Part shown: piece by piece, positions 1-43,874 of the stretch
How the letters are laid out: each line of letters starts with the position of its first letter
How positions within the stretch are numbered: the first letter of the stretch is position 1
Source: an uncultured Calditrichaceae bacterium
GTDB taxonomy: Bacteria > Calditrichota > Calditrichia > Calditrichales > Calditrichaceae
Direction of reading: 5' to 3'
Assembly (NCBI GenBank): GCA_964536685.1
Contig: CAZIBE010000001.1
Coordinates: 62,310 to 126,309 of the forward strand
Length of the DNA stretch: 64,000 nucleotides
Translations under genes and position numbers: made by a program
The notes under the pieces: generated by a model
What the model was told of the DNA's origin: nothing
The model's input: the letters and a program-made list of their open reading frames with translations, nothing else
Databases searched by the model: none

Positions 1-3000
1 TGCGGTACAACCGTTCGCCTCCTTTTTCGGAGAAGGGATGTGGCAGAAAGCGTTCGGCGGTTAAACCGGGACGGTTCAGATAGCCGCGGCTCAGGCCGTC
101 GCCGCTGATAAATATTTCACCGGGAATGCCCTGCGGCGCTAACTGCATGTCTGCATCTAAAATATACACTTGCGCATTCCGGATCGGCCGGCCGATGTTA
201 GGCGGACCGTCGTAACCGTTGATATGAAAGATGGTGGAATCCACCGTACATTCGGTGGGCCCGTAAACGTTATAGAACTGAGTTTGGCCGGCCGATTGTA
301 ATTGCCGCCAGACGTCGCCGTCGATGGCCTCGCCGCCGGGCAGGCAGATTTGCGGCTGCCATTGACCGTCTTCGAACATACCTTCAGCCAAAAGCAGTTT
401 TAGTTGTGAAGGCACGCAGTCCAGCACATCCAATTTGTTTTGGCGGATGAAGGACAACAAAAGATCGCCCGATAAACGCGCATCCTGCGGAATGGGGTAG
501 AGCGTATGCCCTTTTAACAAAAGCACTAATTGCTGCACCGAAGCGTCGAACAAAATGGGCGCGTTTAAACTGGCGCGTAACGGCTGCTCGTCTAAACGGT
601 TGTAGATTTCTTCATAAAGGCCGTCCAAAAGATGCAGCATGGACTGATGCTGAATCACTACGCCTTTAGGCTTGCCGGTGGAGCCGGACGTGTAAATAAC
701 GTACGCGCTGTTTTGCGGCACGGCGCTATTAGCGGGATTTTGTTCACTTTGGCGGCTGATGGCTTCCTGTTCCGCATCAATATAAATCACTTGTGCCTGG
801 TCCTGGGGCAGTTCGGATTTTTTGGTGGAAATAATGGTTTGCAGGCCGGCGTCTTCCACAATAAAGGCCAGCCGCTCTTTGGGATAATTGGGGTCTAAGG
901 GAACGTAAGCCGCGCCGGATTTTAACACGGCCAAAATGGATATAATCATTTCCAACGAGCGGTCCAGATGAATGCCCACAAAGGTTTCCGGTTCCGCGCC
1001 GCGTTGGCGTAAATAGTGCGCCAATTGATTGGCCTTGCGGTTGAGTTGCGCGTAGCTAAGCTGCGTCCCTTCCCAAACCACGGCAGTCCGCTCGGGCGCG
1101 GCGGCCGCCTGTTCCTGAAACAGAAGATGAAAACAGCCTGCCGCGCTTTTGCCGCTAACGCTGTGATTTAATTCATGCAGCAAACGCCGTTCTTCCTGTT
1201 TGCTTAACAGGGCAAGACGGGTGATTTTTTGCGCCGGCTGTTCGCTGATCGCTTTTAACAGATTCTGAAAATGTTCAATGAAGGCGCTAATGGTCGCCGC
1301 GTCAAACAGATCCGTATTGTATTCCCACATGGCGCGAATCGTCGAACGGTCTTCCACCACGGAAAGGGTCATATCGAATTTGGCGCTGCCGCTGTCCATT
1401 TCCAGCGGGCTGATGGAAATACCTTCCATTTCATAACTTTTTTGCGGCGCTTCCTGAAAAGCGAACATCACCTGAAAGATGGGCGTGTAGCTTAAATTCC
1501 GCTCCAGATTCAAGACGTCCACTATTTTTTCGAAGGGCACATCCTGATGCGCATAAGCCTGCTGAACTACTTCCTGCACGCGCGTCATGGCTTCTGTGAA
1601 GCCGGGAGCGCCGGAAAGGTCGCTGCGCAAAACAAGCGTATTTACAAAAAAACCAATCAGCGCTTCGGTTTCGCTGCGGTTGCGCCCGGCGACGGGAATG
1701 CCCACAACGATATCTTCCTGCCGGCTGTAACGGGAAAGGAAAATCTTAAACGCCGTCAGCAAAGTGGTGAACAATGTGCTTTTTTGATCAAGACTGAATT
1801 TTTTAAGCGCGGCGCTGATTTCTGCGGGGATTTCAAAATACTCGCGGCTGCCGTGGAAGGTCTGAACCCTGGGCCGCGGCCGGTCTGTGGGCAGTTGTAT
1901 AAGCGGCGGCGCGCCGCTTAATGTTTCTTTCCAGTAATCTAACTGCTGATTTAATTTTTCACCGTCCAGAAAGCTTCGCTGCCACTGGGCAAAATCAAAA
2001 TATTGAACAGGCAATTCCGGCAGCGGATTGGGTTGCTTATGCAAAAAAGCCTGGTACAAAACGGCCAGCTCTTTGATGAAAATCGAAAGGGAAACGCCGT
2101 CGGAAATGATATGGTGCATATTCAGCACAAACACATGGTCGTCAGGAGCAATCTGCAATAACCGGCAGCGCAGCAAGGGAGCTTGGTCAAGATTGAAGGG
2201 TGTGGCCGCTTCTTTACCGACCAGATTTTCGGCTTTTTGCAGGGCCGTTTGTTCGTCGGCGTCCGACAGAACGCTGAACACAATGGGCAGAGCAACGTTG
2301 TCCGCTATCTGCACTTGCGGCCGGCCTTCGATGGTTGTAAAGGAAGCGCGTAAAATTTCGTGCCGCTGAATGATCGTATTAATGCTTTTTTCCAGGATGG
2401 TTTTATCTAAGGCGCCTTTGATGCGTACGGCCACGGGCATATTGTAAAAAGGGCTGTCCGGCTCCAGTTGATCAAGAAACCAAAGACGCTGCTGCGAAAA
2501 AGAAAGCGGTTTGGGGGCGTCCGCGGGCAGACGCGAGATGTGCCGTATGGAGCGATCGAGCAGACGGCGGATTTCTGTGCGATTTTCGTAGCCGAATGCT
2601 TCGACTAACTCCCAGGCGCTGTCGGACAGATAGTCCTCTTTAAGGCTTTTTTTCCAGTGGTAAGCGCGGTCGGCCGTAATGCCTTTGTGCTCGTGGAAGC
2701 GCACGTCGCCTAACATCTTGGACAAATCATTCAAACCGTCGGTCATGCGCTTTTCTTTATTCTTTTGCGGTTCCAGCATATCCGGATGAATGTCGATATG
2801 TAAAAAGTCGCAGACGCCCTGAACCGTTTTTTGCGGTTCCTGTACAAGGTCCTCGTAAAACAGGCGATACCGGCGCTCGGCGGGAATATTCTCTAAAAAT
2901 TTTAAAATATTCTGGTGGCTGATCAACCAGACCAACTCGGCTAATTGCCGCGAGCTGAAGTTATGTTCGGCGGTAAAAAACGGCGGATAGAATACATGCA

Positions 3001-6000
3001 ATTTGGCTTTTTGAAAAGAGGGAATCACGCCGTAAGGATGGCGGATTAAATGGACGTAGAGCGCGTTGTCAAAATAGGCCTCGGCGCGCTGCAGGATATC
3101 GGGACTGAGGGCATAGTTGGGCGTTTTGTCCACAAACACGCGATCGCCGATCCATTCCTGCATGACGCGGTAAAAATCTTTAACGCTCATATTTTGCGCT
3201 TCGTACTCTTCCATAATTTGCCATGCTTCATCTACGGAGCAATCTTTTATGGCCATGATGGCGCGCACCGTGCCGTCCAGCCAAAAATCGTCGCGGCCGG
3301 TAAGATGCTTTTTGCGTTGCTGCAGGGTGTCGTAATTGAGTAATTGCAATTCGGGCGGCGAAAACAGCTTGGGACTGCCGCCTAAGATAGCGCGCGTTAA
3401 GGTGGAACCGGAACGGGGCGAAGAAATGACAAAGACGGCCTGAGTATTTTTCTGCTGCGCCGCTTCATCTTTGGCCGGGCCGGGAGACCAGATGATTCTA
3501 CGGAAGTGTTCGATATCATCTGTACGGATGCGCGTCTGCTCAAATTGCTGTTGAACTTTTTCGCCGGTGATTTTAAAAACGGACTGCGGATAATCCCGTT
3601 TTAACAGCTCGCACAATTCGGCAATGGTCGGCGCGTCGTACAATGCCACGATGTAAACATATTCGCCCAGAGCATCCTGCAAACGATTAACAAAGGTCGC
3701 CCCCTGGATGGAACTGCCGCCCAGAGCAAAAAAGTTATCGTGAATCCCGATGCGCTCCATTCCCAAAATATCTTTCCACATTTGGTAGATGAATTTTTGC
3801 AGTTTGGTTTGCGGCGGCTGATATTCGGCGGCGCCCGGGCCGGAAGCAACTGCGGAGGCGCTCAACGCTTTACGATTCACCTTGCCCGTAGTGGTTAGCG
3901 GAAAGCTGTCCGGAAAAATATAAACGGCCGGCAGCATATATTCCGGCAGAAGACCGGCAAGATACGCGCGCAACTCCTCTTCCGACGGTTCAGACTGGCT
4001 TTCGGCCAGCACATAGGCGCACAGGAATTTAACGCCATGCTCGTTTTCGGCGGCAACCACCGCGGCCCGGCTAATTTTATTGTGTTTGTTGAGCAGAGCT
4101 TCGATTTCGCCGATTTCGATGCGGAATCCGCGCAGTTTCAATTGATGATCCGCGCGTCCGTCAAATACGATGTTGCCGTCTTCCAAATAATGGGCTAAAT
4201 CGCCGGTTCGGTAAAAGCGCGCATTTTCTTTATCGGAAAAGGGATCGGGAATAAATTTCTCGGCCGTCAGTTCCGGTCGGTTCAGATAACCGCGGGCCAC
4301 GCCTTGCCCGCCGATGTAGATTTCGCCTTTCACACCGGGCGGAACAGGCTGGCGGTTGGCGTCTAAAATATACATGCGCATGTTTTGCATGGGCCGGCCG
4401 ATGGGAATTTTGCCAGCGGGGAAATCCAGCTTGTCCTCGGGATTTATTTGGTAGTAGCAGCTGGTAATGGTCGCTTCGGTCGGGCCGTAAGCATTAATAA
4501 AGCTGAGCGGTCGTTTAGCGTGAGCCCGCATCTGGGCGACTTTTTTAAGCGCGGGAGCTTCGCCGCCCACTACCATAATACGCAGCGATTCCGGAATAGT
4601 AAGCGCGCGCTCTTCTAAAAAATCAACCCAGTTTTGCCACAGAACAACAGGCAGATGCAAAATGGAAATTTGCTGATTTTTAACAATTTGCGAAATATCA
4701 TACGGCGTGATCAGGCTTCCCTTGGGCGGCAAAACCAGCGGAATGCCGCTGAGCAGCGCCGGGTAAATCTCTTCGCCGGCCGCATCAAAACTCAATGAGA
4801 AAAATTGCAGCATGCGGTCAGAAGCGTTTGGCTGGTAAGCGTCCATGGTGGCTAAAGCATGGTTTAACAGGGACTCGTGACGCACGAGCACCGCTTTGGG
4901 CGTTCCGGTTGAGCCCGACGTGTAAATTAAATAGGCCAGCGAATAGGGAGCCATCGGCGCCGTTGGATTGTTTTCTTCCTGATTGTTAAACTCCGCCTCT
5001 TTATCATCAGCTAAAACTATTTCAGCTTTTGCCTTAGAAAATATAGTGTCAAAACGTTTTTGTGTAAGAATAAATCTGGCCTGCGAATCGTCCAGAATCA
5101 GGGCGATACGTTCTTCCGGATAATCCGGGTCTACGGGAATGTAAGCCCCGCCCGCTTTAAGAACGGCTAACAGCGCGATGACCATTTCCGGGGAACGCTC
5201 CATGCTCAAAATGACCAGGTCTTCAGGCTGCAAGCCTTTATTAAGCAGATAATGGGCCAGTTGATTGGCGCGCCGGTTTAATTGGGCATAAGTAAGAATC
5301 TCTGCCGCTTCGTTTGTATTGAGCTGCGGCTGGTAAATAATGGCTGGCTTATCCGCGTTCTTTTGCGCCTGTTGTTCGAAAAGATGGTGCACGCACTGTT
5401 TAGCATATTCTGTTAAAGGCCGCGAGGTGTTATTCCATTCATAAAGAATGCGCTGTTCCTCTTTGGGAGTAAGCAAACGCAGGCCGCTGATGGGCTGCGC
5501 CGGATTTTCGACAATATTTTCCACTAATGTTGTAAAATAACCGATTAATTTCTGAATGGTTTCCCGTTTAAACAGATCCGTATTAAACCCGAAAATGCCG
5601 TTTAACCCATCGCTGGTTTGTTCCATAGAAAGAACGAGATCGAATTTAACGGTTCCGCTCTCTTGCTCGATGATGTCGATTTGCAAATCCGGAAATTCCA
5701 GCGCGGGTCTCGGCGTATTCCTGAAATCGAACAGAACCTGGAACAAAGGGTTGTGGCTGAGCTCGCGCTGCGGATTCAGTTCCTTTACGATCATCTCGAA
5801 AGGCACGTCGTTATTGGAAAAAGCGTCCAGACTGAATGATTTTATATTCTTTAAGAATTCCTCAAAGCTCTGGCTGACTTCCAGGCGGGGACGCATGACT
5901 ACAGTGTTAATAAATAAACCGATCAGGTTTTCGCTGCCTTTATAGTGCCGGTTGGCCAGCGGGGCGCCGATGCCGAAATCGCTTTGCCCGCTGTAGCGAT

Positions 6001-6910
6001 ACAAAAAAACATGATAAACGGCCAGGAGCGTCATAAAAAGAGTTACGCTGTTTTTCTTGCTTAATTCTATGATCTTTTGAGAAAGCGCCGATGACAACTT
6101 AAAAGGAATATGGGCGCCGTGATGGGTTTGCACCGGCGGCCGGGGAAAATCCGTGGGGAGTTCCAGAGCGGACGGCAAATCTTGAAGCGTATCGCGCCAG
6201 AAGGCTAACTGCTTTTGTACGCGATCGCTCTTTAGAAAATTTTCCTGCCAGGCGGCAAAATCAAAATATTGAATGGGCAGTTCCGCAATCGCAAGCGGCG
6301 TTCTCTTAACCAGCGCCGTATAGCGCATGATGATTTCCTGCACAAAAATACCCACTGACCAGGCGTCGGCGATGATATGATGTAAGGTTAACAGCAAAAT
6401 ATGGCGCCGTTCGTTCAGGCGTAACAGTTTGGCGCGCAAAAGCGGAGCTTGCTCGAGATTAAACGGCAGAAGCGCTTCTTCGGAAATCATTTCTTGAGCT
6501 TTGTCCTGCTGTTCTTTAGCCGTTAAAGAGGTCAGGTCTATAAGATGAATTGTCAGTTTTATATCCGCTTGCGGAATTTGCAGCGGCTGGCCGTTATGTG
6601 TTTCAAAATGAACTTGCAGAATCTCATGCCGGGCGATGATTTGGTTCAAGCTTTCCTCAAGCGCGGTAATATTCAAACGGCCGTCAAATTTCAGGGCCGA
6701 GGGGATATTATTTACCGAGCTGCCCTGGTTTAACTGCTCTAAAAACCAAAAGCCTTTTTGTCCGTAAGAAAGCGGACGGTAATCCGGATTGCTCCGTTGC
6801 GGAATATCTTTCACCTGACTGGCGGCAGGTTTGGCTTTTTTTAATTTACTGAGTAGTAATTCGCGTTGTTCCGGCGAAAGGCTCGCCAGACGCTCGTTTA
6901 AATTGGCCAT
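1..6910 (-). CDS. Non-ribosomal peptide synthetase, truncated at its C-terminal end by the left window edge; domain order C-A-T-ST-C-A(partial)
   Basis: Absent from the ORF track because no stop codon lies in the window. Hand translation of the reverse strand from the ATG at 6910-6908 gives MANLNERLASLSPEQRELLLSKLKK.... Motifs read in order: C domain HHIIADAWS; A-domain cores LIYTSGSTG (~4900-4930) and NAYGPTEATIT (~4450-4480); carrier FFALGGSS (~3700-3740); sulfotransferase SSPRSGSTL (~3400-3425); second C domain LSFSQQRLWFLDQLEPDSPFYN and HHIISDGVS; second A domain VIYTSGSTGKPKGV (~670-700). The frame stays open to base 2 (...GERLYR, just before the expected YRTGD core). No minus-strand ORF ending at 6910 is listed, consistent with an uninterrupted frame. 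AGGA lies 6 nt upstream of the ATG. Confidence 0.9.
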   Translation of the reverse strand, partial: MANLNERLASLSPEQRELLLSKLKKAKPAASQVKDIPQRSNPDYRPLSYGQKGFWFLEQLNQGSSVNNIPSALKFDGRLNITALEESLNQIIARHEILQVHFETHNGQPLQIPQADIKLTIHLIDLTSLTAKEQQDKAQEMISEEALLPFNLEQAPLLRAKLLRLNERRHILLLTLHHIIADAWSVGIFVQEIIMRYTALVKRTPLAIAELPIQYFDFAAWQENFLKSDRVQKQLAFWRDTLQDLPSALELPTDFPRPPVQTHHGAHIPFKLSSALSQKIIELSKKNSVTLFMTLLAVYHVFLYRYSGQSDFGIGAPLANRHYKGSENLIGLFINTVVMRPRLEVSQSFEEFLKNIKSFSLDAFSNNDVPFEMIVKELNPQRELSHNPLFQVLFDFRNTPRPALEFPDLQIDIIEQESGTVKFDLVLSMEQTSDGLNGIFGFNTDLFKRETIQKLIGYFTTLVENIVENPAQPISGLRLLTPKEEQRILYEWNNTSRPLTEYAKQCVHHLFEQQAQKNADKPAIIYQPQLNTNEAAEILTYAQLNRRANQLAHYLLNKGLQPEDLVILSMERSPEMVIALLAVLKAGGAYIPVDPDYPEERIALILDDSQARFILTQKRFDTIFSKAKAEIVLADDKEAEFNNQEENNPTAPMAPYSLAYLIYTSGSTGTPKAVLVRHESLLNHALATMDAYQPNASDRMLQFFSLSFDAAGEEIYPALLSGIPLVLPPKGSLITPYDISQIVKNQQISILHLPVVLWQNWVDFLEERALTIPESLRIMVVGGEAPALKKVAQMRAHAKRPLSFINAYGPTEATITSCYYQINPEDKLDFPAGKIPIGRPMQNMRMYILDANRQPVPPGVKGEIYIGGQGVARGYLNRPELTAEKFIPDPFSDKENARFYRTGDLAHYLEDGNIVFDGRADHQLKLRGFRIEIGEIEALLNKHNKISRAAVVAAENEHGVKFLCAYVLAESQSEPSEEELRAYLAGLLPEYMLPAVYIFPDSFPLTTTGKVNRKALSASAVASGPGAAEYQPPQTKLQKFIYQMWKDILGMERIGIHDNFFALGGSSIQGATFVNRLQDALGEYVYIVALYDAPTIAELCELLKRDYPQSVFKITGEKVQQQFEQTRIRTDDIEHFRRIIWSPGPAKDEAAQQKNTQAVFVISSPRSGSTLTRAILGGSPKLFSPPELQLLNYDTLQQRKKHLTGRDDFWLDGTVRAIMAIKDCSVDEAWQIMEEYEAQNMSVKDFYRVMQEWIGDRVFVDKTPNYALSPDILQRAEAYFDNALYVHLIRHPYGVIPSFQKAKLHVFYPPFFTAEHNFSSRQLAELVWLISHQNILKFLENIPAERRYRLFYEDLVQEPQKTVQGVCDFLHIDIHPDMLEPQKNKEKRMTDGLNDLSKMLGDVRFHEHKGITADRAYHWKKSLKEDYLSDSAWELVEAFGYENRTEIRRLLDRSIRHISRLPADAPKPLSFSQQRLWFLDQLEPDSPFYNMPVAVRIKGALDKTILEKSINTIIQRHEILRASFTTIEGRPQVQIADNVALPIVFSVLSDADEQTALQKAENLVGKEAATPFNLDQAPLLRCRLLQIAPDDHVFVLNMHHIISDGVSLSIFIKELAVLYQAFLHKQPNPLPELPVQYFDFAQWQRSFLDGEKLNQQLDYWKETLSGAPPLIQLPTDRPRPRVQTFHGSREYFEIPAEISAALKKFSLDQKSTLFTTLLTAFKIFLSRYSRQEDIVVGIPVAGRNRSETEALIGFFVNTLVLRSDLSGAPGFTEAMTRVQEVVQQAYAHQDVPFEKIVDVLNLERNLSYTPIFQVMFAFQEAPQKSYEMEGISISPLEMDSGSAKFDMTLSVVEDRSTIRAMWEYNTDLFDAATISAFIEHFQNLLKAISEQPAQKITRLALLSKQEERRLLHELNHSVSGKSAAGCFHLLFQEQAAAAPERTAVVWEGTQLSYAQLNRKANQLAHYLRQRGAEPETFVGIHLDRSLEMIISILAVLKSGAAYVPLDPNYPKERLAFIVEDAGLQTIISTKKSELPQDQAQVIYIDAEQEAISRQSEQNPANSAVPQNSAYVIYTSGSTGKPKGVVIQHQSMLHLLDGLYEEIYNRLDEQPLRASLNAPILFDASVQQLVLLLKGHTLYPIPQDARLSGDLLLSFIRQNKLDVLDCVPSQLKLLLAEGMFEDGQWQPQICLPGGEAIDGDVWRQLQSAGQTQFYNVYGPTECTVDSTIFHINGYDGPPNIGRPIRNAQVYILDADMQLAPQGIPGEIFISGDGLSRGYLNRPGLTAERFLPHPFSEKGGERLYR
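2582..3439 (-). other. Embedded sulfotransferase (ST) domain, copy 2, between carrier domain and second condensation domain
   Basis: Hand translation reads AVFVISSPRSGSTLTRAILGGSPKLFSPPELQLLNYDTLQQRKKHLTGRDDFWLDGTVRAIMAIKD...FVDKTPNYALSPDILQRAEAYFDNALYVHLIRHPYGVIPSF...LEPQKNKEKRMTDGLNDLSKMLGDVRFHEHKGITADRAYHWKKSLKEDYLSDSAWELVEAFGYEN. It contains a PAPS 5'-phosphosulfate-loop-like SPRSGST and an R-x7-S 3'-phosphate-like RHPYGVIPS. It is colinear with the ST domain at 11771-12628. Confidence 0.8.
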
Positions 6911-7120: not shown

Positions 7121-10100
7121 TTATTCCAATTCATCCAACAAATCGCTGATTTCATCTTCTCCAAGTTCCACATCCGTAAAGTCGGACGGTGTGTAATTTT
7201 TGCTTTTTACAGAAATACAGTGGGCAATTATATTCTTCAGTTCTTCCATGTAAATCATTAAGATTTTCCGAATCGTTGTCTCTTTATGCAAGGCGCTGCT
7301 ATAAGCGATTTGCAGCAGCAATTGTCCGTTTTTAATGCTGGCGCTAATATCCAGTATAAACTCTCTTTTGTTTTTGGGGCTGCGCTCAGAGCCTGTTAAA
7401 TCGTTGATTGCTTCAAAGGCGCCGGCTTCGTTGAGCTGCCGCTCAAACTGTCCGAGATAGTTGAACACAACCTGAGGTTTATATCGGCTTAGCGCTTTTT
7501 CAATTTCCGGATTGCCGGACAGATAACGGAGCAAACCGTAGCCCAGACCCTTTTGCGGAATCCGGCGAAGATGTTCTTTAACCCGCTTTATGGCCCCGGC
7601 GGGAGTATAAATGCCTGAAAGATTCAGATACACCGGGAAGAGGGAAGTGAACCACCCCACAGTTCTGGAAACATCCGCGCCTTCGATAATATCTTCGCGG
7701 CCATGTCCTTCCAGAGCAACCAGCAAGGCCTCTTTGCCGCTCCAGCGTTTAAAGGCCGCGGCCAGCGCCGTTAGCAAAAGCTCGTTTATTTGCGTATTGT
7801 AAGCATGCGGCGCCTGGTGCAATAATTGGCGGGTTTCCTCTTCGGATAACATATCGCTAACCGTTCCCAGCGTTTTTTCGGTATTCTCCCCGCCGCTAAA
7901 ATCTACAGGAAACGGTGTGCTTTGAGCGGTGATTTGTTGCTTCCAATACTCATAGTCCGCCAGCGCCCGTTTACTGCCGGCAAATTTCGCTAAGCTTTCG
8001 GCCCAATATTTAAACGAAGTGGATTTTGGCGGCAGGCTTATTTGCTGCCCGGAAACAGCCTGCGCGTAAGCTAATTGGATATCCTCGGTTAATATGCGCC
8101 AGGAAACGCCGTCGATGGCCAAATGATGAATGATAATGAGTAAGCGATCGGCGGCCTGACCGCCCAGGCTAAAATAAGCCACGCGCATAATCGGTCCTTC
8201 ATTCAGATCCAAAGCGGCCTGTAATTTTTCAGACTCCCGGGCGATAGCTTTGCGCTGTGCTTCGGGATGGCGATCGCTTAAATCAAAAAACGTAAAGGGC
8301 GTGACGGCTTCTTTCTCCTCGATATAAAGCTGTGTTCCCGAATCGCTTTTTTTAACGCGCAGACGTAAGGCGTCGTGGTGTTCAAGTAGTTTAGCCACAA
8401 CCTGTTTTAGAATATCAGCCTTTAAAGGGTGGTCGGTCTCTAGCATCAGCGATTGATTCCAGTGCTGTTCATTTGCATAGCGCTGTTCAAAGAAATGCCT
8501 TTGGATGGGTGTGGCCGGAAAGCTTCCGCTAACCGTTCCCTGCTCGGCATGAATAGCGGTACGTTCTTCGACAACGGCAGCCAGCCCCTCAATGGTGGGA
8601 TTTTCAAACAACTGGCGCGGGGTTATCTGCAAGCCTTCTCTTTTGGCGCGGGCAATAACCTGAATGCTTAAGATCGAATCGCCGCCCATTTCGAAAAAGT
8701 TGTTATGAATGCCCACCTGCGGTACATGCAGTATCTCCTGCCAGATACGCGCCAGAATTTCTTCTTTTTTGTTGGTCGGCGCTACGTAGGTTGCTTGCGT
8801 CTTTTCCAGATCAATGGCCGGAAGCGGCAGAGCCTTGCGATCAATTTTGCCGTTGGGCGTGAGCGGAAACTCGGTCAGCGGAACAAAGAACACCGGAATC
8901 ATATACTCCGGCATGGATTTTTCCAAAAAACTGCGCAGCGCGCCGCTTTCCGGCGGCTGTTCGTCCTTTGTTAAAAAATAGGCGGTCAATTGCTGATGTC
9001 CCGGCGTATCCTCGCGCACCATAACCAGCGCGTCTTCAACGGCTGCATGCCGGCGCAGGGCGCTTTCTATCTCGCCCAGCTCGATGCGGAAGCCGCGCAG
9101 TTTAACCTGATAGTCCAGGCGACCCTTAAAAGTCAAACTGCCGTCGGCGTTAAAACAGGCCAAATCGCCGGTTTTGTACATGCGCGCGCCACTGATCCCG
9201 CTAAAGGGATCGGGGATGAACTTTTCGGCGGTAAGTTCAGGGCGATTTAAATATCCGCGTCCCAGTCCGTGGCCGGCAATATGCAACTCTCCGGTTACGC
9301 CGACGGGCAGCGGTTGCAGGTTGTCGTCCAATACGTAAAAACGCGTATTAGCCGCCGGCCGGCCGATAGTGGGCTGATCAGGGAAATCCGCTACCGGGCA
9401 CATAGTGGAATCCACGGTGCACTCCGTGGGGCCGTACATATTAAAAAAGTTGATTGTCTTGTCGGACTGCAATTCCTGCCACATTTCATGATCAATGGCT
9501 TCTCCGCCGGGAAGGATGTCTGCCGGCGCCCGGCCGCCGTCAAACAGTCCGGCCTGAATGAGCAGCTTCAATTGCGAAGGCACGCAGTCTAACAGCTCAA
9601 TTTTGTATTTACGGATGAAGTCCAGTAAGGCCTGGCCCTCGTAACGCACATCCTGCGGGATGATCACTAAATGGTGGCCGTGCATCATCATTACGATTTG
9701 CTGGACGGAGGCGTCGAAGGCCAGCGGCGCGTTCAGGCTGATGCGGCGTTTGACGTCGCCGTATTTTTGGTAGATGGTTTTATGAAGGTTGGCGGCCAGA
9801 TTCAGCGGCGAACGATGTTGAATCATCACGCCTTTGGGTTTTCCTGTTGAACCCGACGTGTAAATAATGTACGCCAGATTCTCCGGAAGCAGAGCAATGT
9901 CCGGATTTTCTGCGGGCATTTGCGCCAGATCGTCTGTTATTTTGTCCAGAGCGATTAACGGCGTGTTTATTCCTTTGTCTTCGGAAAAGGCATACTGTGA
10001 ACGGGCAAGCAAAAAGGCCGCACCGGAATCTTCCAGCATATAGGCAACGCGCTCCGGCGGATACGAAGGATCTAGGGGCAGATAAGCGCCGCCGGCTTTT

Positions 10101-19000: not shown

Positions 19001-19464
19001 CCGGTAGCCAAATTAAAAGGTCTAAGAGATTCCTCCACGGCGTGTTGGTGCATCAGGGCCTCGCGCCGCTCTGCCGGCGTATTTTCCAAGTTGATAACGG
19101 AAATGCTCAAAGTAAGCCGCTCAGCGACTATTTGCAGCGCTTCGCCGTTTTCTTCGGTAAAGGTGGTGCGCAGCACCTCGTGCCGCTCGATGATTTTATT
19201 GAAGCTCTTTTCCAGCGCCGCAATATCCAGCGTGCCGTTTAAGCGCAGCACAGCGGGAATGTTGTACAGCGGGCTGCCGGGTTCCAATTTATCTAAAAAC
19301 CACAAACGCTGCTGCGAAAAAGACAGCGGAAATTTATTGTTCTCCCGTGACTGGGGTACGATTAAAACCTGCGACAGATCGACGCCTTGCTCCAAAAGCA
19401 TCATTTCCAACAGTTCGCGCTTTTCCGGCGGCAAGCTGGCGATTTGTTCGTAAATACTACTCAT
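16084..19464 (-). CDS. Non-ribosomal peptide synthetase, single module C-A-T
   Basis: ORF track, 1126 aa. C: LSFSQQRLWFLDKLEPGSPLYN, HHIVSDNWS. A: YTSGSTGQPKGV, NAYGPTEATIT, YKTGD, GRIDFQVKIRGFRIELGEIE, SGKINRHALP. T: FFDLGGHSM. Acidic C-terminal tail ...LDELEGLSEEDIQNLLKDEEE. Hand-extracted specificity residues: DAENIGAITK. Confidence 0.95.
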   Translation of the reverse strand: MSSIYEQIASLPPEKRELLEMMLLEQGVDLSQVLIVPQSRENNKFPLSFSQQRLWFLDKLEPGSPLYNIPAVLRLNGTLDIAALEKSFNKIIERHEVLRTTFTEENGEALQIVAERLTLSISVINLENTPAERREALMHQHAVEESLRPFNLATGPLLRVTLLKFSNNDHVLIVTMHHIVSDNWSTGIFVHEIMQMYSAYVQGRQPQLPKLAVQYADFAAWQRKWFKGKTMDDQVNYWKEQLKGIPPLIDLPLDKQRPAYQTYNGNFKTFHISGEISARLKEISRQQDVTFFMTLLAAYFVLLHRYSGQDDICVGSPIAGRNRKETETMIGFFVNTLVLRGQLHGNPAFSDFLQRVKETTLGAYAHQDLPFENLVEELQPERDMSHSPLFQVMFVLNNAPVDKLELPGMELSVVEIENKTSKFDLILNVLEEDNGLKCKIEYNTDLFVDETIEQFVKHYQNLLEAVAENPQTPIGQLSILKQTEIDALLEQWSRPGKIYNDRRSIVEMFARQAKTTPQALALRVLDAQLTYRELDEQSARLARYLLKKGLKRGQIAGVFADRSPQVIVAFLAALKAGGVYLPLDPSYPKERLEYMLNDSQAAFMLTLSHLKDILPADGRQTIIIDEEQENIAQEAADNPQVTLAAQDTAYIIYTSGSTGQPKGVEITHFALANHSLDMADYYQLTPDDNVLQFAALNFDASIEQIVPPLISGATVCMRDNEIWDSHQLSQKIREYDLTVINPPTAYWAQIVEAWVENPQLIPENRLRLVIVGGDVLHTETLEKWFQTPLKNVRLINAYGPTEATITATTYDIPANFKRWRVPIGRPRANRSVYILDKYGNPAPPLIPGELHIGGNLLAKGYLNRPELTQERFIGNPLFEGSSERLYKTGDRVRFLSDGNLNFMGRIDFQVKIRGFRIELGEIENILLRMPPIKDAVVKAFDTEHRDKVLVAYITSPNKEAPDAQSIRSFLEEHLPDYMIPAVFVPLDEMPMDPSGKINRHALPAPDLSTAQVSTEYVAPRTQSEEFLVDIVKEILHIDRVGIRDSFFDLGGHSMMATQVVSRIREEFDVEISLRTLFEHPTVEGISQAITEAQAAHVDEGELNELLDELEGLSEEDIQNLLKDEEE

Positions 19465-19500
19465 TTATTTCCTTCTTTTGCTGCAATGTTTAAGTTTTAA

Positions 19501-19668
19501 ATTAAGAATTAAGAATTAAGAATTGAGAATTCAATTAAAAACACGCTTTTTATCCATTAAATATTGTGCAAGTTTTACCATCCGTATAGCAAAAGCGTAA
19601 CTCTTTTGCTGAATGAGATTATTATCTTTCATTTTATCATAATTCTTAATTCATAATTCTTAATTATT
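19501..19668. repeat. Inverted arrays of a 7-nt tandem repeat (AAGAATT)n / (AATTCTT)n flanking a ~110-nt spacer between PKS and NRPS genes
   Basis: Left array 19501-19531: ATTAAGA ATTAAGA ATTAAGA ATTGAGA ATT. Right array 19641-19668: AATTCTT AATTCAT AATTCTT AATTATT. The right array overlaps the TAA stop (19660-19662) of the upstream PKS gene. The arrays are reverse complements and could form a long AU-rich stem on the transcript. Confidence 0.7.
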
Positions 19669-22600
19669 TTTCTTCTTTTGTTTTAGAATTTCTTTTGCTT
19701 CATCCTCCGAAAGATTTTCCATTTGCTGCAGAAGATCGGCCACTTTGGTCATATCGCTGTCTTTTTCCTCCTGACGATGGGTTTCGATTATTCTAGCCAC
19801 GCCCGAGATGGTCGGGTCTTCGAACAAGCTGCGCAGAGGCAGCTCAACCTGAAAGGCGTCGCGCAATTCGGAAATGAGCTGTGTGCCCATCAGCGAGTTG
19901 CCGCCTAAATCGAAAAAGTCGTCATAAATGCCGATTTCTGAAATCCCTAACAATTTTTGCCAGGCGGCGGCAACCTCTTTTTGCAGATCGCTCTCCGGAG
20001 CCACATAGGGATTGGGAAGTTCCGGCCGGTCATGGAATTCGCCCGCCGCCGCGCCGCCTTCGCTTGCCTGTTCTGAATCCAGTTTCAGCCATTTATCTAT
20101 GCGGGCCTGTAAATCACCGGTGGAAACGATGATTTGCTGTAAATCGCGATAACTGAAAATACGCTCAAAAGCGGCGATGCCTTCATCGGGCAGGATGGAA
20201 AGCTGAGCGATTTCCGCGCCCAGACCCGAAGCGGAAGCGTTTTCCTCAAAATTCCAGCCGTCCCAGTTTACATCAATCCACTGCGCCCGGTTCTTTTTGT
20301 TTTGCTGATGGGCTAAGGCGTCCAATACGGTATTAGCCGCGGCGTACGCGCCAAATCCCAATCCGCCTAAAATGGAGGACATGGATGATTGCAACAGCAC
20401 AAAATCCGCCTCGATGTCATCTAAAATTTCGGCGATGTGCAGCGCGCCGTACACTTTGGCTGCAAACTGACTTTGCCAGTCCTCTTCTTTGATTTCCGGA
20501 ATGGCTTTAAAGGCGTGCGCACCCACCACGCCGGCGGCATGGATTACTCCGTCGACGCCGCCGAAACTATTTACAATCTCCTTAAACGCCGTTTGCAGCG
20601 TTTCTTTATCGCTTACGTCTGCTTGCAGTACTAATACGTCCGCGCCGGCATGAATCATATTTTGCAGGCGTTTGATCTTGATGCTGGTCAAATCGTCCGC
20701 GCCGTGTTCGTTAAGCCATCCTTCCCATTGTCCTTTGGCCGGAAATTCATACGGCTCAATCAGCGCCAGGCGGGCTTTGACGGTTAACGCCAGATGATGG
20801 GCCAGCTTCAGTCCGATACGCCCCAAACCGCCGGTGATCACATACACGCCCTTTTCTTTTAGGTAACCGCCGGTCTGATGGCTTTCTCTCAGGGGCAGCG
20901 CTTCAAAGGTTTGCACCCAGCGCTGTTTACCGCGGTAGGCTATGGCCAGATGACGTTCTTCGTCGCTAAATTCGCGTAAAATGCGTCCGGCTAAATTTTC
21001 AAGCTCGTCGCCCATGCGCTGAGGCAGGGCCACATCGATATCTTTACAGATGATGTTGGGAAATTCCTGCGGAATTACTTTGCTTAGCCCGCGAATAGTG
21101 GCTAAGGCCGGCTCGATGCGTTCGAAACCGTTGATGTTAAACATATCGTTGGAGACGATGCCGATTTGTATGTGCTGTGTGATATTTTCGGCGGCAAAGG
21201 CCTGCACCAAATATAACAGACTCAAATAAGCGCTCTCTAACGCCTTGTTAAACGGGATAGTTATATTGCGCACCGAAACATTGGCCAGGTGCACAACAAA
21301 ATCCGGCAGTTGTTCCGTTTCTTTTAAGTTGTGAATTACCTGCAGGTAATCTTCCGGAGCGCTGATGCGGATAGCGTAGTGCAAATCATCTTTTTTAGCA
21401 AAGGCCGAACTCTGTTCCAATACAATCACCTGTTGATTATGCTCCTTCAGCAATTCGGTTAGCTGCATGGCCAGCCCGGTTTGATCTTTAAGCACCAGCC
21501 AGGTTTTGCGTTCACTTAGAACGCTTTTAGGGCCAAGCGGCAGTTGGCGCTGTTTCCATGATGGCGTGTAAAACCATTGGGCCAAATCGCTGCGTTTGCC
21601 GATGGCTTCTTGTGTACCGCCTGCGCCGCCGGCCGATAAGGCTTTGCCTTTATGCAGCCAGTAACGCTGCCGCTCAAAGGGATACGTAGGCAGGGGAACG
21701 CGTAAACGCCGTTCTTCGCCGTAATAGTTGTCCCAGTTGATTTCGGCGCCGGCCATCCACAATCGGCCCAAGGTTTTCAAGATAAAAGCTTCGTCTCCGC
21801 TCTCGTCGTTAGGATGGCGCATGGAAGAAAGGATGATTCTGCCCAGCGAATTGGAGGGATGCCGGCGCGCTAAAGTGGTGAGCACTGTGCCCGGGCCTAC
21901 TTCTAACAGCACCGCCTCGGCGTCTTGCAGAAGCTCGTAAACATTATCGGTAAAACGCACACCGTTGCGCAGGTGGCGGGCGTAGTATTCCGGCGAAACA
22001 GCCTCTTCGTCGGTAATCCATGTGCCGCTGGTGTTGGACAAATAGGGCGTCTGCGGTTTATTTAAGGGAACGGCGGCCACGACAGCGGTGAATTCTTCGA
22101 TAATGGGATCCATCATTGAAGAATGAAAGGCGTGCGAAGTGTGCAGCCGGCGGCACTGGATGTTTTTTTTCGCTAATTCTTTTTCCAATTGTTCGATGGC
22201 TTCGAAGGCGCCGGAAACAACAGTAACGCCGGCGCTGTTTAAGGCGCCGATGGTGACCCCATCGCTTAAGTAGGGGTGAATGCTGTTTTCATCCAACTGT
22301 ACGCTGAGCATGGCTCCCGGCGGCATGGATTGCATCAGACGACCGCGGGCCGCGACGATTTTAAGGGCGTCTTTCAGGGAAAACACGCCGGCCAGATGCG
22401 CCGCCACATATTCGCCGATGCTGTGGCCGACCATAGCTGCCGGCTCCACGCCCCAGTGGATCCATAATTTAGCCAAAGCGTACTCGATAACGAACAGGGC
22501 CGGTTGGGTACATTCGGTCTGATTCAGCTTTTTAGCGGCTGCTTCTTCTTCTCCGACAGGCGGATAAATCAGCGCTTGCAAATCCAACTGCGCTTCTTCT

Positions 22601-24312: not shown

Positions 24313-24814
24313 CCAACTTCTCCTGTTACCTCTGTCCTGGTCTACTTTTTATGTCAAAAATGGGCATATCCGAAGCGGCTGCCCAAAATATTCATCAGTG
24401 AATCTAATAATTTTTGAATTACAATTGTAATTTTCTCTAAAAATGAATTTACGATAAAACTAAAAAAAATGCTCCTTTTCTATTTACAGAAACCGTTGGC
24501 AACAGTTTCATAATCATGTCAATTTTTTAGTAGCCCTTAATGTAACCCGTGGGCGAAAATGCGTAATAAATGTATCAAAAACGTTTTAACGTTTTGAAAC
24601 GCCTTATTAAAGTGAACTCAAAAATTATGGAATTGTCTTTTATTGTCAATCTGCTGACGGTCACATGCCTTCGGCCGGAACTCTGGATGCCCCCTTTCAA
24701 TTTTCTTCTTAACAAAAGGGGCTGCCGAATACGGCGAAAACATCCAATTTAGAGCCAACTTCTCAAAATGTCGTTTTATCAACCAGCTAAGAATTTACCT
24801 AAACAAAACATCTT

Positions 24815-43118: not shown

Positions 43119-43874
43119 CTAACTCTTGTTGGTTAAATCAGTAGTTTTTTTGATTAACTGTTGCCAAGACTGGCCGTGCCGTGTTTTAAAAGAGCGGCTA
43201 AAAGCGGAAATATTTTTGTAGTCCAGTACGTCAAATATTTCTTTTGGTTTCAAGTTTCGCTGGAAGAGCAATTCGCTTTCATAATGGTACAAAACTTTTT
43301 GTTTGAAATTGCGGAAGCTCATTAAAAATGCCTTTCTGAATTCCGCCCGAAAATGACTTTCAGAAATATTTAAATAATCGGCTATATGATTAGAAGTGAA
43401 ATTCTTTACCGGATGTGTCTCGATAAGATTAATAATCATCTGGTCGCGGGAAGAGAGGGGAAAGGCTTTTTCCGGAATGATGTTCAGCGGGATACGTTTC
43501 CAGTGATTCTGCCAGAGCTCGCGCAACACTTTGATGAGATGAAACTGACGGGCGTCGCCGATAACGCAGTAATCCACTCCGGCCAGATATAAATGGGCGA
43601 ATTCTTCGCTTTTCATCTGCGAATTGTAGAAAATAATCCGGACCAGAGGAAAAGTGCGGCGCAAAGCGGAAAGTTGTTTTAGGGAAGATTCATGAAGGTC
43701 CTGCGAATAGAGAACAAAGTAAAAATCCGATTCGGCAACGAAGTGGATGAGAGCCTCAGGAGAGGAGTGGTTGTTGCCGGAAAAGGATATAGTCCAGCCC
43801 TGTAATTGGTTTAAAACTTCCTCTTTTTCTATAAAGGAAGTTTCGGAGTTGTCAACTACCAGCAGATTAGACAA
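43119..43874 (-). CDS. Transcriptional regulator: N-terminal receiver-like domain plus C-terminal AraC/XylS-type HTH
   Basis: ORF track, 251 aa. The C-terminus reads NHIADYLNISESHFRAEFRKAFLMSFRNFKQKVLYHYESELLF...PKEIFDVLDYKNISAFSRSFKTRHGQSW, the two-HTH AraC pattern. The N-terminus LLVVDNSE...YFVLYSQDLHE...VRIIFYNS resembles a CheY-like fold with atypical acidic-pocket residues. TTG start at 43874-43872. Its stop lies 2 nt before the FAAL-PKS start. Confidence 0.8.
   Translation of the reverse strand: MSNLLVVDNSETSFIEKEEVLNQLQGWTISFSGNNHSSPEALIHFVAESDFYFVLYSQDLHESSLKQLSALRRTFPLVRIIFYNSQMKSEEFAHLYLAGVDYCVIGDARQFHLIKVLRELWQNHWKRIPLNIIPEKAFPLSSRDQMIINLIETHPVKNFTSNHIADYLNISESHFRAEFRKAFLMSFRNFKQKVLYHYESELLFQRNLKPKEIFDVLDYKNISAFSRSFKTRHGQSWQQLIKKTTDLTNKS

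What the first reader, a model, noticed from the sequence alone, without database searches (positions are those of the whole stretch)
2582..3439. Second ST copy: the unit [A-T-ST-C-A(Gln)] recurs in two consecutive NRPS genes
Seen: the edge-truncated NRPS has a second ST (SSPRSGSTLTRAIL...LFSPPELQLL...FVDKTPNYAL...LIRHPYGVIPSF...MTDGLNDLSKMLGDVRFHEHKGI...YHWKK). It sits in the same position, after the first carrier and before the second C domain. In both genes the module after the ST carries a Gln-type code by my hand extraction (DAQDLGMVDK and DAQDLGVVD-). The module before the ST differs between the two (DALWLGGTFK versus DAEHVGAITK). Both copies keep the PAPS motifs, which argues for selection on function rather than a decaying insertion. 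Inference: the constant partner is the downstream Gln module, not the upstream residue. The ST may therefore act together with the following condensation step or on something common to both positions. It also suggests a module-pair duplication.
Basis: partly seen in the sequence, partly recalled or inferred. Interest (0 to 1): 0.7.

Follow-up and report, generated by a model that had tools for sequence, protein, structure and literature searches.

The report
In-line sulfotransferase domains in an NRPS
Two peptide-assembly genes in a Calditrichota lipopeptide cluster each carry a built-in, apparently working sulfate-transfer domain, and comparison with about 100 relatives shows that it goes with the amino acid of its own module (usually Thr, Ser or Tyr), not with the glutamine module that follows.

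Summary
Window 2582-3439 (minus strand) encodes a complete CurM-type sulfotransferase (ST) domain. It sits between the first carrier domain and the second condensation domain of the edge-truncated NRPS, and a second copy lies at 11768-12625 in the neighbouring gene. All four hand-read adenylation codes reproduce exactly. Both copies keep every family-conserved residue. Copy 2 is under strong purifying selection (dN/dS 0.05-0.09).

The main inference is not supported.
- In 75 related genome loci the A-T-ST-C arrangement is common in Calditrichota, Acidobacteriota and Chloroflexota.
- ST clades follow the upstream A-domain code. Thr, Ser or Tyr codes make up 57 of 90 ST-bearing modules, against 3 of 123 modules without an ST.
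- The downstream code is Gln-type in only 4 of 65 cases.
- The two window copies belong to different deep ST clades (51% identity, dS saturated), so no recent module-pair duplication is visible.

Most likely each ST uses PAPS to sulfonate the residue tethered on its own module's carrier domain, before the next condensation. The acceptor in this window is unclear: copy 2 follows an Arg-like code with Asp278 replaced by His, and copy 1 follows a Val-like code. Whether the sulfate is kept or eliminated is also unresolved. I found no paper describing this elongation-module architecture.

The parts
2582..3439 (-). ST copy 2. CurM-type PAPS sulfotransferase domain of the edge-truncated NRPS (residues about 1158-1443). 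Key residues by codon: Arg1166 (3413-3415), Glu1187 (3350-3352), Lys1262 (3125-3127), Arg1290-His1291 (3038-3043), Ser1298 (3017-3019).
3593..3805 (-). T1, the carrier domain immediately upstream of ST copy 2. It carries a GGSS phosphopantetheine site and is the presumed presenter of the ST substrate.
3875..5398 (-). A1 of the edge gene, code DAEHVGAITK. It matches the published Arg consensus at 9 of 10 positions, with Asp278 replaced by His. This is the module partner of ST copy 2.
5426..6805 (-). C1 of the edge gene. It follows the E domain of the preceding gene. The gene starts at ATG 6910.
1166..2524 (-). C2, the condensation domain directly after ST copy 2. HHIISDG is intact. The closest solved relatives are ordinary C domains (teixobactin Txo1/Txo2).
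2..1138 (-). A2 of the edge gene, cut off by the window end. Code DAQDLGVVD- (Gln/Glu type). The 96.6% identical orthologue in L001 continues as A-T-E, giving a gene of 2984 aa.
11768..12625 (-). ST copy 1, in gene 7121-16069. Key residues by codon: Arg1158 (12596-12598), Glu1179 (12533-12535), Lys1255 (12305-12307).
7121..16069 (-). NRPS gene g2 (2982 aa): C-A(DALWLGGTFK)-T-ST-C-A(DAQDLGMVDK)-T-E.
16084..43116 (-). Upstream part of the same assembly line. g6 is FAAL-ACP-KS-AT-DH-ER-KR-ACP. g5 is KS-AT-DH-ER-ACP-C-A-T. g4 is KS-AT-KR-ACP. g3 is C-A(DAENIGAITK)-T.

Best explanation
Each ST is a working, cis-acting, PAPS-dependent sulfotransferase domain of the CurM/OLS structural family, built into an NRPS elongation module between its carrier (T) domain and the next condensation (C) domain. 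It sulfonates a nucleophilic group on the residue loaded by its own module's A domain while that residue, or the peptidyl chain ending in it, hangs on the preceding T domain. The next C domain then passes the modified intermediate on.

In most relatives the acceptor is the side-chain hydroxyl of Thr, Ser or Tyr, and I take the default outcome to be a sulfate ester kept in the peptide. In this window the partners are an Arg-like A domain with Asp278 replaced by His (copy 2) and a Val-like A domain (copy 1). The acceptor group here is therefore inferred, not shown. It could be a hydroxylated derivative or a side-chain nitrogen.

The two copies are old paralogues that mark two separate sulfonation positions in a lipopeptide. 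They are not a recent module-pair duplication. The downstream Gln/Glu module is a lineage-specific neighbour, not the functional partner.

Shown: domain identity, fold, conserved catalytic and PAPS-binding residues, purifying selection, the architecture, and the co-variation of the ST with the upstream A code. Inferred: PAPS use, action on the T-bound substrate, the acceptor atom, and the fate of the sulfate.
For: Domain identity and fold:
- Pfam Sulfotransfer_3 at E=1.8e-28.
- CurM ST 4gbm at E=1.3e-58.
- AF2 model at pLDDT 91.5, TM 0.91 to 4gbm and 0.88 to 4gox. The next-best structures are peptide tyrosine sulfotransferases.

Catalytic competence:
- Arg39, Glu60, Lys133 (CurM numbering, recalled from the 4gbm paper) and the RHP...S motif are invariant in 104 embedded STs. 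Both window copies have them.

Selection:
- dN/dS is 0.085 and 0.045 for copy 2.
- ST is the best conserved domain between g2 and its divergent L001 orthologue.

Architecture:
- T-ST-C is present in nearly all of the 75 genome loci, often in 2-3 consecutive modules. Pfam confirms it on L041.
- 1078 clusters at 50% identity match at E<=1e-30, and the best hits are mostly proteins of 1000-7660 aa.

Partner residue:
- Thr, Ser or Tyr codes account for 57 of 90 A domains followed by T-ST, against 3 of 123 A domains not followed by ST in the same loci.
- All 28 Ser- or Tyr-coded modules carry an ST.
- ST clades follow the upstream code even inside a single protein. In L044, for example, the Tyr-module STs and the Thr-module ST fall in different clades.
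- Downstream codes are diverse.

Precedents for sulfonating carrier-tethered intermediates:
- CurM/OLS (PMC3903477).
- SulN, which N-sulfonates a T-bound tripeptide (PMC11298585).
- The ST domains of OciA and DysB, which give sulfated glyceric acid (PMC2533009; PMC6520454).

The post-ST C domains look like ordinary LCL condensation domains. Txo1/Txo2 are the best matches, and the dehydrating AmbE domain is a distant match.
Against: - The two window partners are not hydroxy-amino-acid codes. DALWLGGTFK is 9 of 10 identical to the commonest Val code. DAEHVGAITK is 9 of 10 identical to the Arg consensus. So a side-chain OH is not evident here.
- No hydroxylase or PAPS-synthesis gene is visible in the window. 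The flank beyond the AraC regulator is housekeeping, and the other end of the cluster lies outside the window.
- The upstream association could partly reflect tighter physical linkage of A-T-ST than of ST-C-A. The enrichment test is also not corrected for phylogeny, since the Thr, Ser and Tyr clades represent only a few independent origins.
- The closest characterised relatives (CurM, OLS) install sulfate as a leaving group, not as a final decoration.
- There are no biochemical data at all.
Confidence: 0.6

Rival explanations
1. Activation for elimination. The ST sulfonates a beta-hydroxyl of the T-bound residue: Ser or Thr directly, or beta-hydroxy-Val and beta-hydroxy-Arg made by a hydroxylase acting in trans. 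The sulfate then leaves, giving an alpha,beta-dehydro residue (Dha, Dhb, dehydrovaline or dehydroarginine) before or during the next condensation. In the T-ST-TE termination modules the outcome would be decarboxylative elimination, as in CurM.
For: - The nearest characterised homologues are the 'activating' STs CurM and OLS (PMC3903477).
- The beta-OH of Ser and Thr occupies the same C3 position as the CurM substrate hydroxyl (chemistry, inference).
- NRPS termination modules with Thr or Ser codes end in T-ST-TE, copying the CurM tridomain.
- STs also follow Val-, Leu- and Ile-like codes, which only make sense if those residues are beta-hydroxylated.
- Val-type codes are reported for dehydrovaline and beta-OH-Val positions, and dehydro-Arg is a known NRP residue (PMC12283262).
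- Position 278 of the window codes is His or Asn, the same residues found at 278 in the Ser and Thr codes (inference).
Against: - About 20 ST-bearing modules have the Tyr code, and Tyr has no beta-OH. The acceptor set is exactly the three proteinogenic hydroxy amino acids, not the residues that are usually beta-hydroxylated.
- Post-ST C domains resemble ordinary LCL domains, not the dehydrating AmbE type.
- No hydroxylase is visible in the available sequence.
Confidence: 0.25
2. The ST's functional partner is the downstream Gln module, either by acting on Gln or by working together with the following condensation step. The unit T-ST-C-A(Gln) spread by a module-pair duplication.
For: - Both window genes have ST-C-A with a DAQDLG[VM]VD(K) code.
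- In the small copy-1 clade 3 of 4 members have a Gln-type code downstream, while the upstream A varies.
- The two genes have the same architecture and nearly the same length, 2982 and 2984 aa.
Against: - The downstream code is Gln-type in 4 of 65 junctions.
- In copy 2's clade the downstream code is mostly DAEH-type, while the upstream code is DAEH-type in 15 of the 16 members with a readable upstream code.
- STs occur before TE domains with no downstream module at all.
- The two STs lie in different deep clades at 51% identity, and equivalent domains of the two genes are no more alike than non-equivalent ones.
Confidence: 0.04
3. The STs act on a remote hydroxyl of the growing chain, for example the beta-hydroxyl left by the KS-AT-KR-ACP module g4, and not on the residue of their own module.
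For: - The window partners lack an obvious OH.
- Module g4 leaves a beta-hydroxy group two to four residues upstream.
- In L016 an ST directly follows a KR-ACP.
Against: - There are two STs but only one KR-derived hydroxyl after the last fully reducing module.
- ST clades track the own-module A code across phyla.
- Most ST-bearing loci have no nearby KR.
Confidence: 0.07
4. One or both STs are inactive relics or structural spacers, in particular copy 1 after its A domain was exchanged for a Val-type one.
For: - Copy 1 follows a Val-like A, whereas the L001 counterpart has an ...IAK-type (DAEH-like) A.
- Copy 1 departs from the family consensus at three columns that are at least 93% conserved.
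Against: - All PAPS-binding and catalytic residues are retained in both copies.
- ST is the best conserved domain between g2 and its L001 counterpart at 66%.
- Copy 2 has dN/dS of 0.05-0.09.
Confidence: 0.04

Closest known systems
CurM ST (curacin A PKS, PDB 4gbm) and olefin synthase ST (PDB 4gox), the 'activating' sulfotransferases in ACP-ST-TE tridomains
   Same: - Same fold: TM 0.91 and 0.88.
- Clear sequence homology (phmmer E=1.3e-58 and 4.1e-51); 36% and 33% identity in the structural superposition.
- Same PRSGST loop, PPEL glutamate and VDK lysine.
- Placed directly after a carrier domain.
   Different: - Here the ST is followed by a condensation domain, not a thioesterase.
- The carrier belongs to an amino-acid module, not to a KR-containing PKS module.
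- The residue at the CurM His62 position is Gln in copy 2 and Asp in copy 1.
- The sulfate may be retained rather than eliminated.
ST domains in the NRPS loading regions of cyanopeptolin OciA (Planktothrix) and dysinosin DysB
   Same: An ST built into an NRPS protein that gives a sulfated building block in the final peptide (PMC2533009; PMC6520454).
   Different: - Those act on a glyceric acid starter unit loaded by an FkbH-type or glycerate-activating region.
- They occur once per pathway, not in A-T-ST-C elongation modules.
- Their sequence relationship to the window STs was not tested here.
SulN of sulfazecin biosynthesis
   Same: PAPS-dependent sulfonation of an NRPS intermediate while it is tethered to a T domain. 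This shows that a side-chain nitrogen can be the acceptor (PMC11298585).
   Different: - It is a stand-alone enzyme acting in trans.
- It N-sulfonates Dap.
- The sulfamate directs beta-lactam formation by the TE.
Stand-alone ACP-ST didomain proteins of about 430 aa (for example Anabaena sp. PCC 7108 P0003 and Thiothrix nivea P0018)
   Same: 49-54% identical to the window STs, with a carrier domain fused upstream.
   Different: - They are not part of a megasynthase.
- In Anabaena the gene sits next to an alpha/beta hydrolase, a second sulfotransferase and an APS kinase.
- Their function is uncharacterised.
Tyrosylprotein sulfotransferases (TPST1 and TPST2)
   Same: They are the next-best structural matches (TM about 0.6), and they sulfate a Tyr hydroxyl in a peptide.
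   Different: Only 15-19% identity. They are eukaryotic Golgi enzymes that act on free proteins.

Membership tests
CurM/OLS-type sulfotransferase domain (Pfam Sulfotransfer_3) | Sulfotransferase fold with significant sequence and structure similarity to 4gbm and 4gox | tested here: met
   Pfam E=1.8e-28. PDB phmmer E=1.3e-58 and 4e-51. Foldseek TM 0.91 and 0.88 on a model with pLDDT 91.5.
CurM/OLS-type sulfotransferase domain (Pfam Sulfotransfer_3) | PAPS-binding motifs: the 5'-phosphosulfate loop PRSGST and the 3'-phosphate motif RHP...S | tested here: met
   Both copies carry them, and they are invariant in 104 embedded STs. Assigning these motifs to PAPS binding rests on general sulfotransferase knowledge.
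CurM/OLS-type sulfotransferase domain (Pfam Sulfotransfer_3) | Catalytic Glu60 and Lys133 (CurM numbering, recalled from the 4gbm paper, which could not be opened) | tested here: met
   Glu1187 and Lys1262 in copy 2. Glu1179 and Lys1255 in copy 1.
CurM/OLS-type sulfotransferase domain (Pfam Sulfotransfer_3) | His62 next to the catalytic Glu, as in CurM and OLS | tested here: not met
   Gln in copy 2 and Asp in copy 1. It is Glu in the Thr, Ser and Tyr clades, so the position is clade-specific.
ACP-ST-TE decarboxylative off-loading tridomain (CurM, OLS, haliamide type) | A carrier domain immediately upstream of the ST | tested here: met
   T1 lies about 50 residues upstream in both genes.
ACP-ST-TE decarboxylative off-loading tridomain (CurM, OLS, haliamide type) | A thioesterase immediately downstream of the ST | tested here: not met
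   A condensation domain follows in both window genes. Some relatives (L017-L028, L052, L056, L059) do have T-ST-TE.
ACP-ST-TE decarboxylative off-loading tridomain (CurM, OLS, haliamide type) | A beta-hydroxyacyl substrate made by a KR in the same module | tested here: not met
   The modules are C-A-T amino-acid modules with no KR.
NRPS elongation module | C, A and T domains with an intact HHxxxDG motif, A core motifs and a Ser attachment site | tested here: met
Gln-activating A domain (Stachelhaus code DAQDLGVVDK) | A ten-residue code identical or nearly identical to DAQDLGVVDK | tested here: met
   DAQDLGVVD- and DAQDLGMVDK. The same code is reported for both Glu and Gln (PMC12283262), so the substrate is Gln or Glu.
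Recent tandem module-pair duplication | The two units are each other's closest relatives, with a clearly higher identity inside a defined block | tested here: not met
   A flat identity of about 42% along 2300 aa. ST copies are 51% identical and lie in different clades. C2-C2 is 46%, below the 48% of edge_C2 against g3_C.
PAPS-dependent sulfotransferase activity on a T-bound substrate | Demonstrated transfer of sulfate to a carrier-tethered residue | not testable with these tools
   This needs biochemistry: Ppant-ejection MS after incubation with PAPS.

The most novel reading that the evidence does not exclude
In-line CurM-type STs form a widespread, so far uncharacterised NRPS tailoring domain that marks the hydroxyl of its own module's residue. 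In some modules the sulfate would serve as a leaving group. That would be a sulfation-elimination route to dehydro-amino acids (Dha, Dhb, and in this cluster dehydrovaline or dehydroarginine). In the T-ST-TE termination modules it would give C-terminal enamides by decarboxylative elimination. This would be a second, condensation-domain-independent way for NRPSs to make dehydro residues. It would also predict hundreds of sulfated or dehydrated peptides in Acidobacteriota, Chloroflexota and Calditrichota.
Probability: 0.25. Interest if true: 0.8.

Novelty: new variant of a known kind. Interest (0 to 1): 0.6.

Why it matters
Sulfotransferase domains inside assembly lines are known from PKS off-loading (CurM, OLS) and from glyceric-acid loading modules. 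I found no description of STs inserted between T and C of ordinary amino-acid elongation modules.

The comparative data give a simple, testable rule: the ST goes with its own module's residue, and that residue is mostly Thr, Ser or Tyr. The rule would let genome miners predict sulfated, or possibly dehydrated, positions in more than 1000 sequence clusters of megasynthases from poorly cultured phyla. For this cluster it predicts two modified positions in a Calditrichota lipopeptide. It also flags an unassigned Arg-like A-domain code (DAEH/DAEN) whose substrate is worth determining.

Tried and rejected
I used close orthologues instead.
- Exact-protein look-up of the g2 product: not on record.
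- First word-indexed protein search with the ST: it returned mostly short fragments and ACP-ST didomains and missed the long megasynthases. The exhaustive representative search corrected this.
- Walking to the unseen end of the cluster to look for hydroxylase, PAPS or TE genes. The metagenome scan with the last L001 module gave only a 64% relative whose contig ends about 2 kb after the match, plus generic NRPS loci. A second protein search gave only generic NRPS hits.
- Literature: 10 searches found no paper on A-T-ST-C modules and no hit for the codes DAEHVGAITK, DAENIGAITK or DALWLGGTFK. The CurM ST structure paper (PMC3528841) is not held, so the CurM residue roles are from memory.
- A specialised dehydrating C domain after the ST: rejected on present evidence. 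The post-ST C domains match ordinary C domains best, and AmbE is a distant match. The nearest-neighbour clustering of post-ST C domains (63 of 82) is probably just orthology.
- An early BLAST that seemed to show an edge-like duplicate in L001 was an artefact of a multi-record query file. I redid it with L001 alone.
- An alternative gene on the other strand: only a 97-aa antisense ORF at 3050-3343, judged spurious.

Full report
**1. What is at the coordinates**

The window carries a large hybrid PKS/NRPS cluster on the minus strand.
- An AraC-type regulator lies at 43119-43874.
- g6 (34321-43116) is FAAL-ACP-KS-AT-DH-ER-KR-ACP.
- g5 (24815-34324) is KS-AT-DH-ER-ACP-C-A-T.
- g4 (19660-24312) is KS-AT-KR-ACP.
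- g3 (16084-19464) is C-A-T.
- g2 (7121-16069, 2982 aa) is C-A-T-ST-C-A-T-E.
- An ORF open from 6952 to base 2, with an ATG at 6910, reads C-A-T-ST-C-A and is cut by the window edge.

The plus-strand genes beyond 44640 are housekeeping: gltX, a sigma-54 two-component system and RND efflux.

The only other ORF in that stretch is a 97-aa antisense ORF.

**2. Identity of the domain**

- Pfam Sulfotransfer_3 matches at E=1.8e-28 for copy 2 and 1e-25 for copy 1.
- The only solved sequence relatives are CurM ST (4gbm, E=1.3e-58) and the olefin-synthase ST (4gox, E=4e-51).
- An AlphaFold model built on a 47-sequence alignment has mean pLDDT 91.5. It superposes on 4gbm at TM 0.91 and on 4gox at TM 0.88. 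The next matches are tyrosylprotein sulfotransferases at TM about 0.6.
- In an alignment of 104 megasynthase-embedded STs, both window copies keep the invariant PRSGST loop, the PPEL glutamate, the VDK lysine and RHP...S. I equate these with CurM Arg39, Glu60 and Lys133 from memory of the 4gbm paper, which could not be opened.
- The position of CurM His62 is clade-specific. It is Glu in the Thr, Ser and Tyr clades, Gln in copy 2's clade and Asp in copy 1's clade.

**3.

I used a PheA fragment as the anchor. It returns its own published code, DAWTIAAICK. The codes are as follows.

| A domain | Code |
|---|---|
| edge A1 | DAEHVGAITK |
| edge A2 | DAQDLGVVD- |
| g2 A1 | DALWLGGTFK |
| g2 A2 | DAQDLGMVDK |
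| g3 A | DAENIGAITK |
| g5 A | DAETVAGICK |

A 2025 survey of 2051 A domains (PMC12283262) helps interpret them.
- DAQDLGVVDK is used for both Glu and Gln.
- DALWIGGTFK is the commonest Val code. Val-like codes also occur at beta-OH-Val and dehydrovaline positions.
- The Arg consensus is D-[AV]-E-D-[IVL]-G-A-[VI]-[TD]-K.

So DAEHVGAITK and DAENIGAITK are Arg-like at 9 of 10 positions, with Asp278 replaced by His or Asn. Their substrate is unknown.

**4. Selection and duplication**

The closest relative is L001, a Calditrichota MAG. It is 96.6% identical in nucleotides to window 1-6877.
- Against L001, copy 2 has dN/dS 0.085. This is the lowest of the large domains; the C and A domains range from 0.15 to 0.31.
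- Against L002 (89% aa), copy 2 has dN/dS 0.045.

The two window genes are collinear, but identity is a flat 42% or so over 2300 aa. Equivalent domains are no more alike than non-equivalent ones.
- C2-C2 is 46%, while edge_C2 against g3_C is 48%.
- T1-T1 is 36%.
- Only A2-A2, at 49%, stands out slightly, as expected for a shared specificity.

The two STs are 51% identical, with dS about 2. In a neighbour-joining tree they sit in different deep clades.
- Copy 2 groups with other Calditrichota STs and with Chloroflexota STs (60% to L013).
- Copy 1 groups with STs that follow DAENIGAITK modules in related clusters (59% to L004_4261).

The two ST positions are therefore old paralogues shared across the Calditrichota cluster family. 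They are not a duplication in this lineage.

**5. Comparative anatomy**

One scan of species-representative genomes found 401 relatives, of which 75 loci were kept. I built profile HMMs from the window's own domains and used them to lay out the architectures.
- Almost every ST is embedded as A-T-ST-C, often in two or three consecutive modules (L032, L041, L071).
- Some STs end a protein as A-T-ST-TE. Pfam confirms this for L052 and L017, and confirms T-ST-C for L041.
- One ST follows a PKS KR-ACP (L016).
- An exhaustive search of 1.84 billion representative proteins found 1078 clusters at E<=1e-30. The best hits are mostly 1000-7660 aa long, with the ST in an internal position.

**6. Which neighbour is the partner?**

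I extracted codes for 284 A domains.
- Of 90 fully coded A domains followed by T-ST, 57 carry the canonical Thr (DFWN[IV]GMVHK), Tyr (DA[SA]T[VI]AAVCK) or Ser (DVWH[VI]SLVWK) codes. A further 18 are the DAE[HN] type and 8 are DGFFHGE-type.
- Of 123 A domains in the same loci that are not followed by an ST, only 3 are Thr and none is Ser or Tyr (Fisher p = 2e-24). This test is not corrected for phylogeny, and the loci were chosen because they contain an ST.
- Downstream of ST-C the codes are mixed: Gly 11, DAE[HN] 11, Thr 8, Tyr 8, Gln 4, Ser 2 and other 21.

The ST tree sorts by the upstream code, even within single proteins. Within copy 2's clade the upstream code is DAEH-type in 15 of the 16 members whose upstream code could be read, while the downstream code is Gln-type only in the window, L001 and L009.

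There is one caveat. In the four-member copy-1 clade the downstream code is Gln-type in three. The upstream A is Val-like in two (window and L009) and ...IAK-type in L001. That suggests an A-domain exchange upstream of a retained ST.

**7. Mechanism**

The best-supported reading is a cis-acting, PAPS-dependent sulfonation of the residue held on the module's own T domain, before the next condensation. Three precedents exist.
- CurM and OLS STs act on ACP-bound intermediates (PMC3903477).
- SulN N-sulfonates a T-bound tripeptide in trans (PMC11298585).
- NRPS-embedded STs in OciA and DysB give sulfated glyceric acid (PMC2533009; PMC6520454).

The acceptor set across the family is exactly Thr, Ser and Tyr, and Tyr cannot undergo beta-elimination. 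The post-ST C domains also look ordinary: Txo1/Txo2 are the best matches and the dehydrating AmbE domain is distant. For these reasons I take retention of the sulfate ester as the default.

The main rival is sulfation followed by elimination to a dehydro residue. It is supported by the CurM ancestry, by the T-ST-TE termini on Thr and Ser modules, and by STs that follow Val-, Leu- and Ile-like codes, which would need beta-hydroxylation. It would fit this window's Val-like and Arg-like partners if a hydroxylase is encoded in the unseen part of the cluster. I could not reach that part.

**8. Novelty**

Ten full-text searches found no description of ST domains in amino-acid elongation modules. The library is limited to open-access papers and preprints. 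I therefore rate this as a new variant of a known kind. The domain family and the idea of on-line sulfonation are known. The A-T-ST-C placement, its breadth, and the own-module Thr/Ser/Tyr rule appear to be undescribed.

**9. Verdict**

Interest is moderate to high because of the general rule that emerges and because the acceptor in this cluster is still unresolved.

Noticed in passing
window 1-6910 against 7121-16069, compared with L001: Mosaic relationship to the closest genome. L001 is 96.6% identical in nucleotides over the whole edge gene (window 1-6877), but its upstream gene, the g2 counterpart, is only 65-68% identical in nucleotides (44-66% aa per domain). The break falls at the gene boundary. 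The window also has a gap of about 210 nt between the two genes, where they abut in L001. This suggests gene-level recombination inside the cluster, or a chimeric MAG contig.
   Followed up: partly
L017-L028, L052, L056, L059, L072 (about 9998-11800 in each): NRPS termination modules that end in T-ST-TE. The A codes are Thr (L052, L056), Ser (L059), Tyr-like (L072) or DGFFHGEIWK (Pyrinomonadaceae). This is the CurM/OLS off-loading tridomain on an aminoacyl terminus, and it would predict C-terminal enamides if the chemistry is conserved.
   Followed up: partly
L016 about 1083-1940: An ST directly after a PKS KR-ACP and before a C domain (KR-ACP-ST-C). This ST groups with the olefin-synthase ST in the tree.
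   Followed up: no
L004, L005, L010, L012, and window g3 (16084-19464): Related Calditrichota clusters have tandem carriers and an ST (A[DAENIGAITK]-T-T-ST). The window's g3 has the same A code but a single T and no ST.
   Followed up: no
window 3344-3346 and 12527-12529: The residue two positions after the catalytic Glu (the CurM His62 position) is clade-specific: Glu in the Thr, Ser and Tyr clades, Gln in copy 2's clade, Asp in copy 1's clade. It is a candidate acceptor-specificity determinant.
   Followed up: partly
window 24815-34324 (g5, residues about 1740-1995): g5 has DH and ER domains but no KR hit in Pfam or with my KR profile. About 250 unassigned residues lie before the ACP.
   Followed up: no
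L076 5846-12217 (Anabaena sp. PCC 7108): The stand-alone ACP-ST protein P0003 lies next to an alpha/beta hydrolase, a second Sulfotransfer_3 gene and an APS kinase. This looks like a split ACP-ST plus hydrolase system of unknown function.
   Followed up: no
window 43119-64000: The cluster ends at an AraC-type regulator (43119-43874). G+C then drops from about 0.50 to about 0.44 in the housekeeping flank (gltX, sigma-54 two-component system, RND efflux).
   Followed up: no
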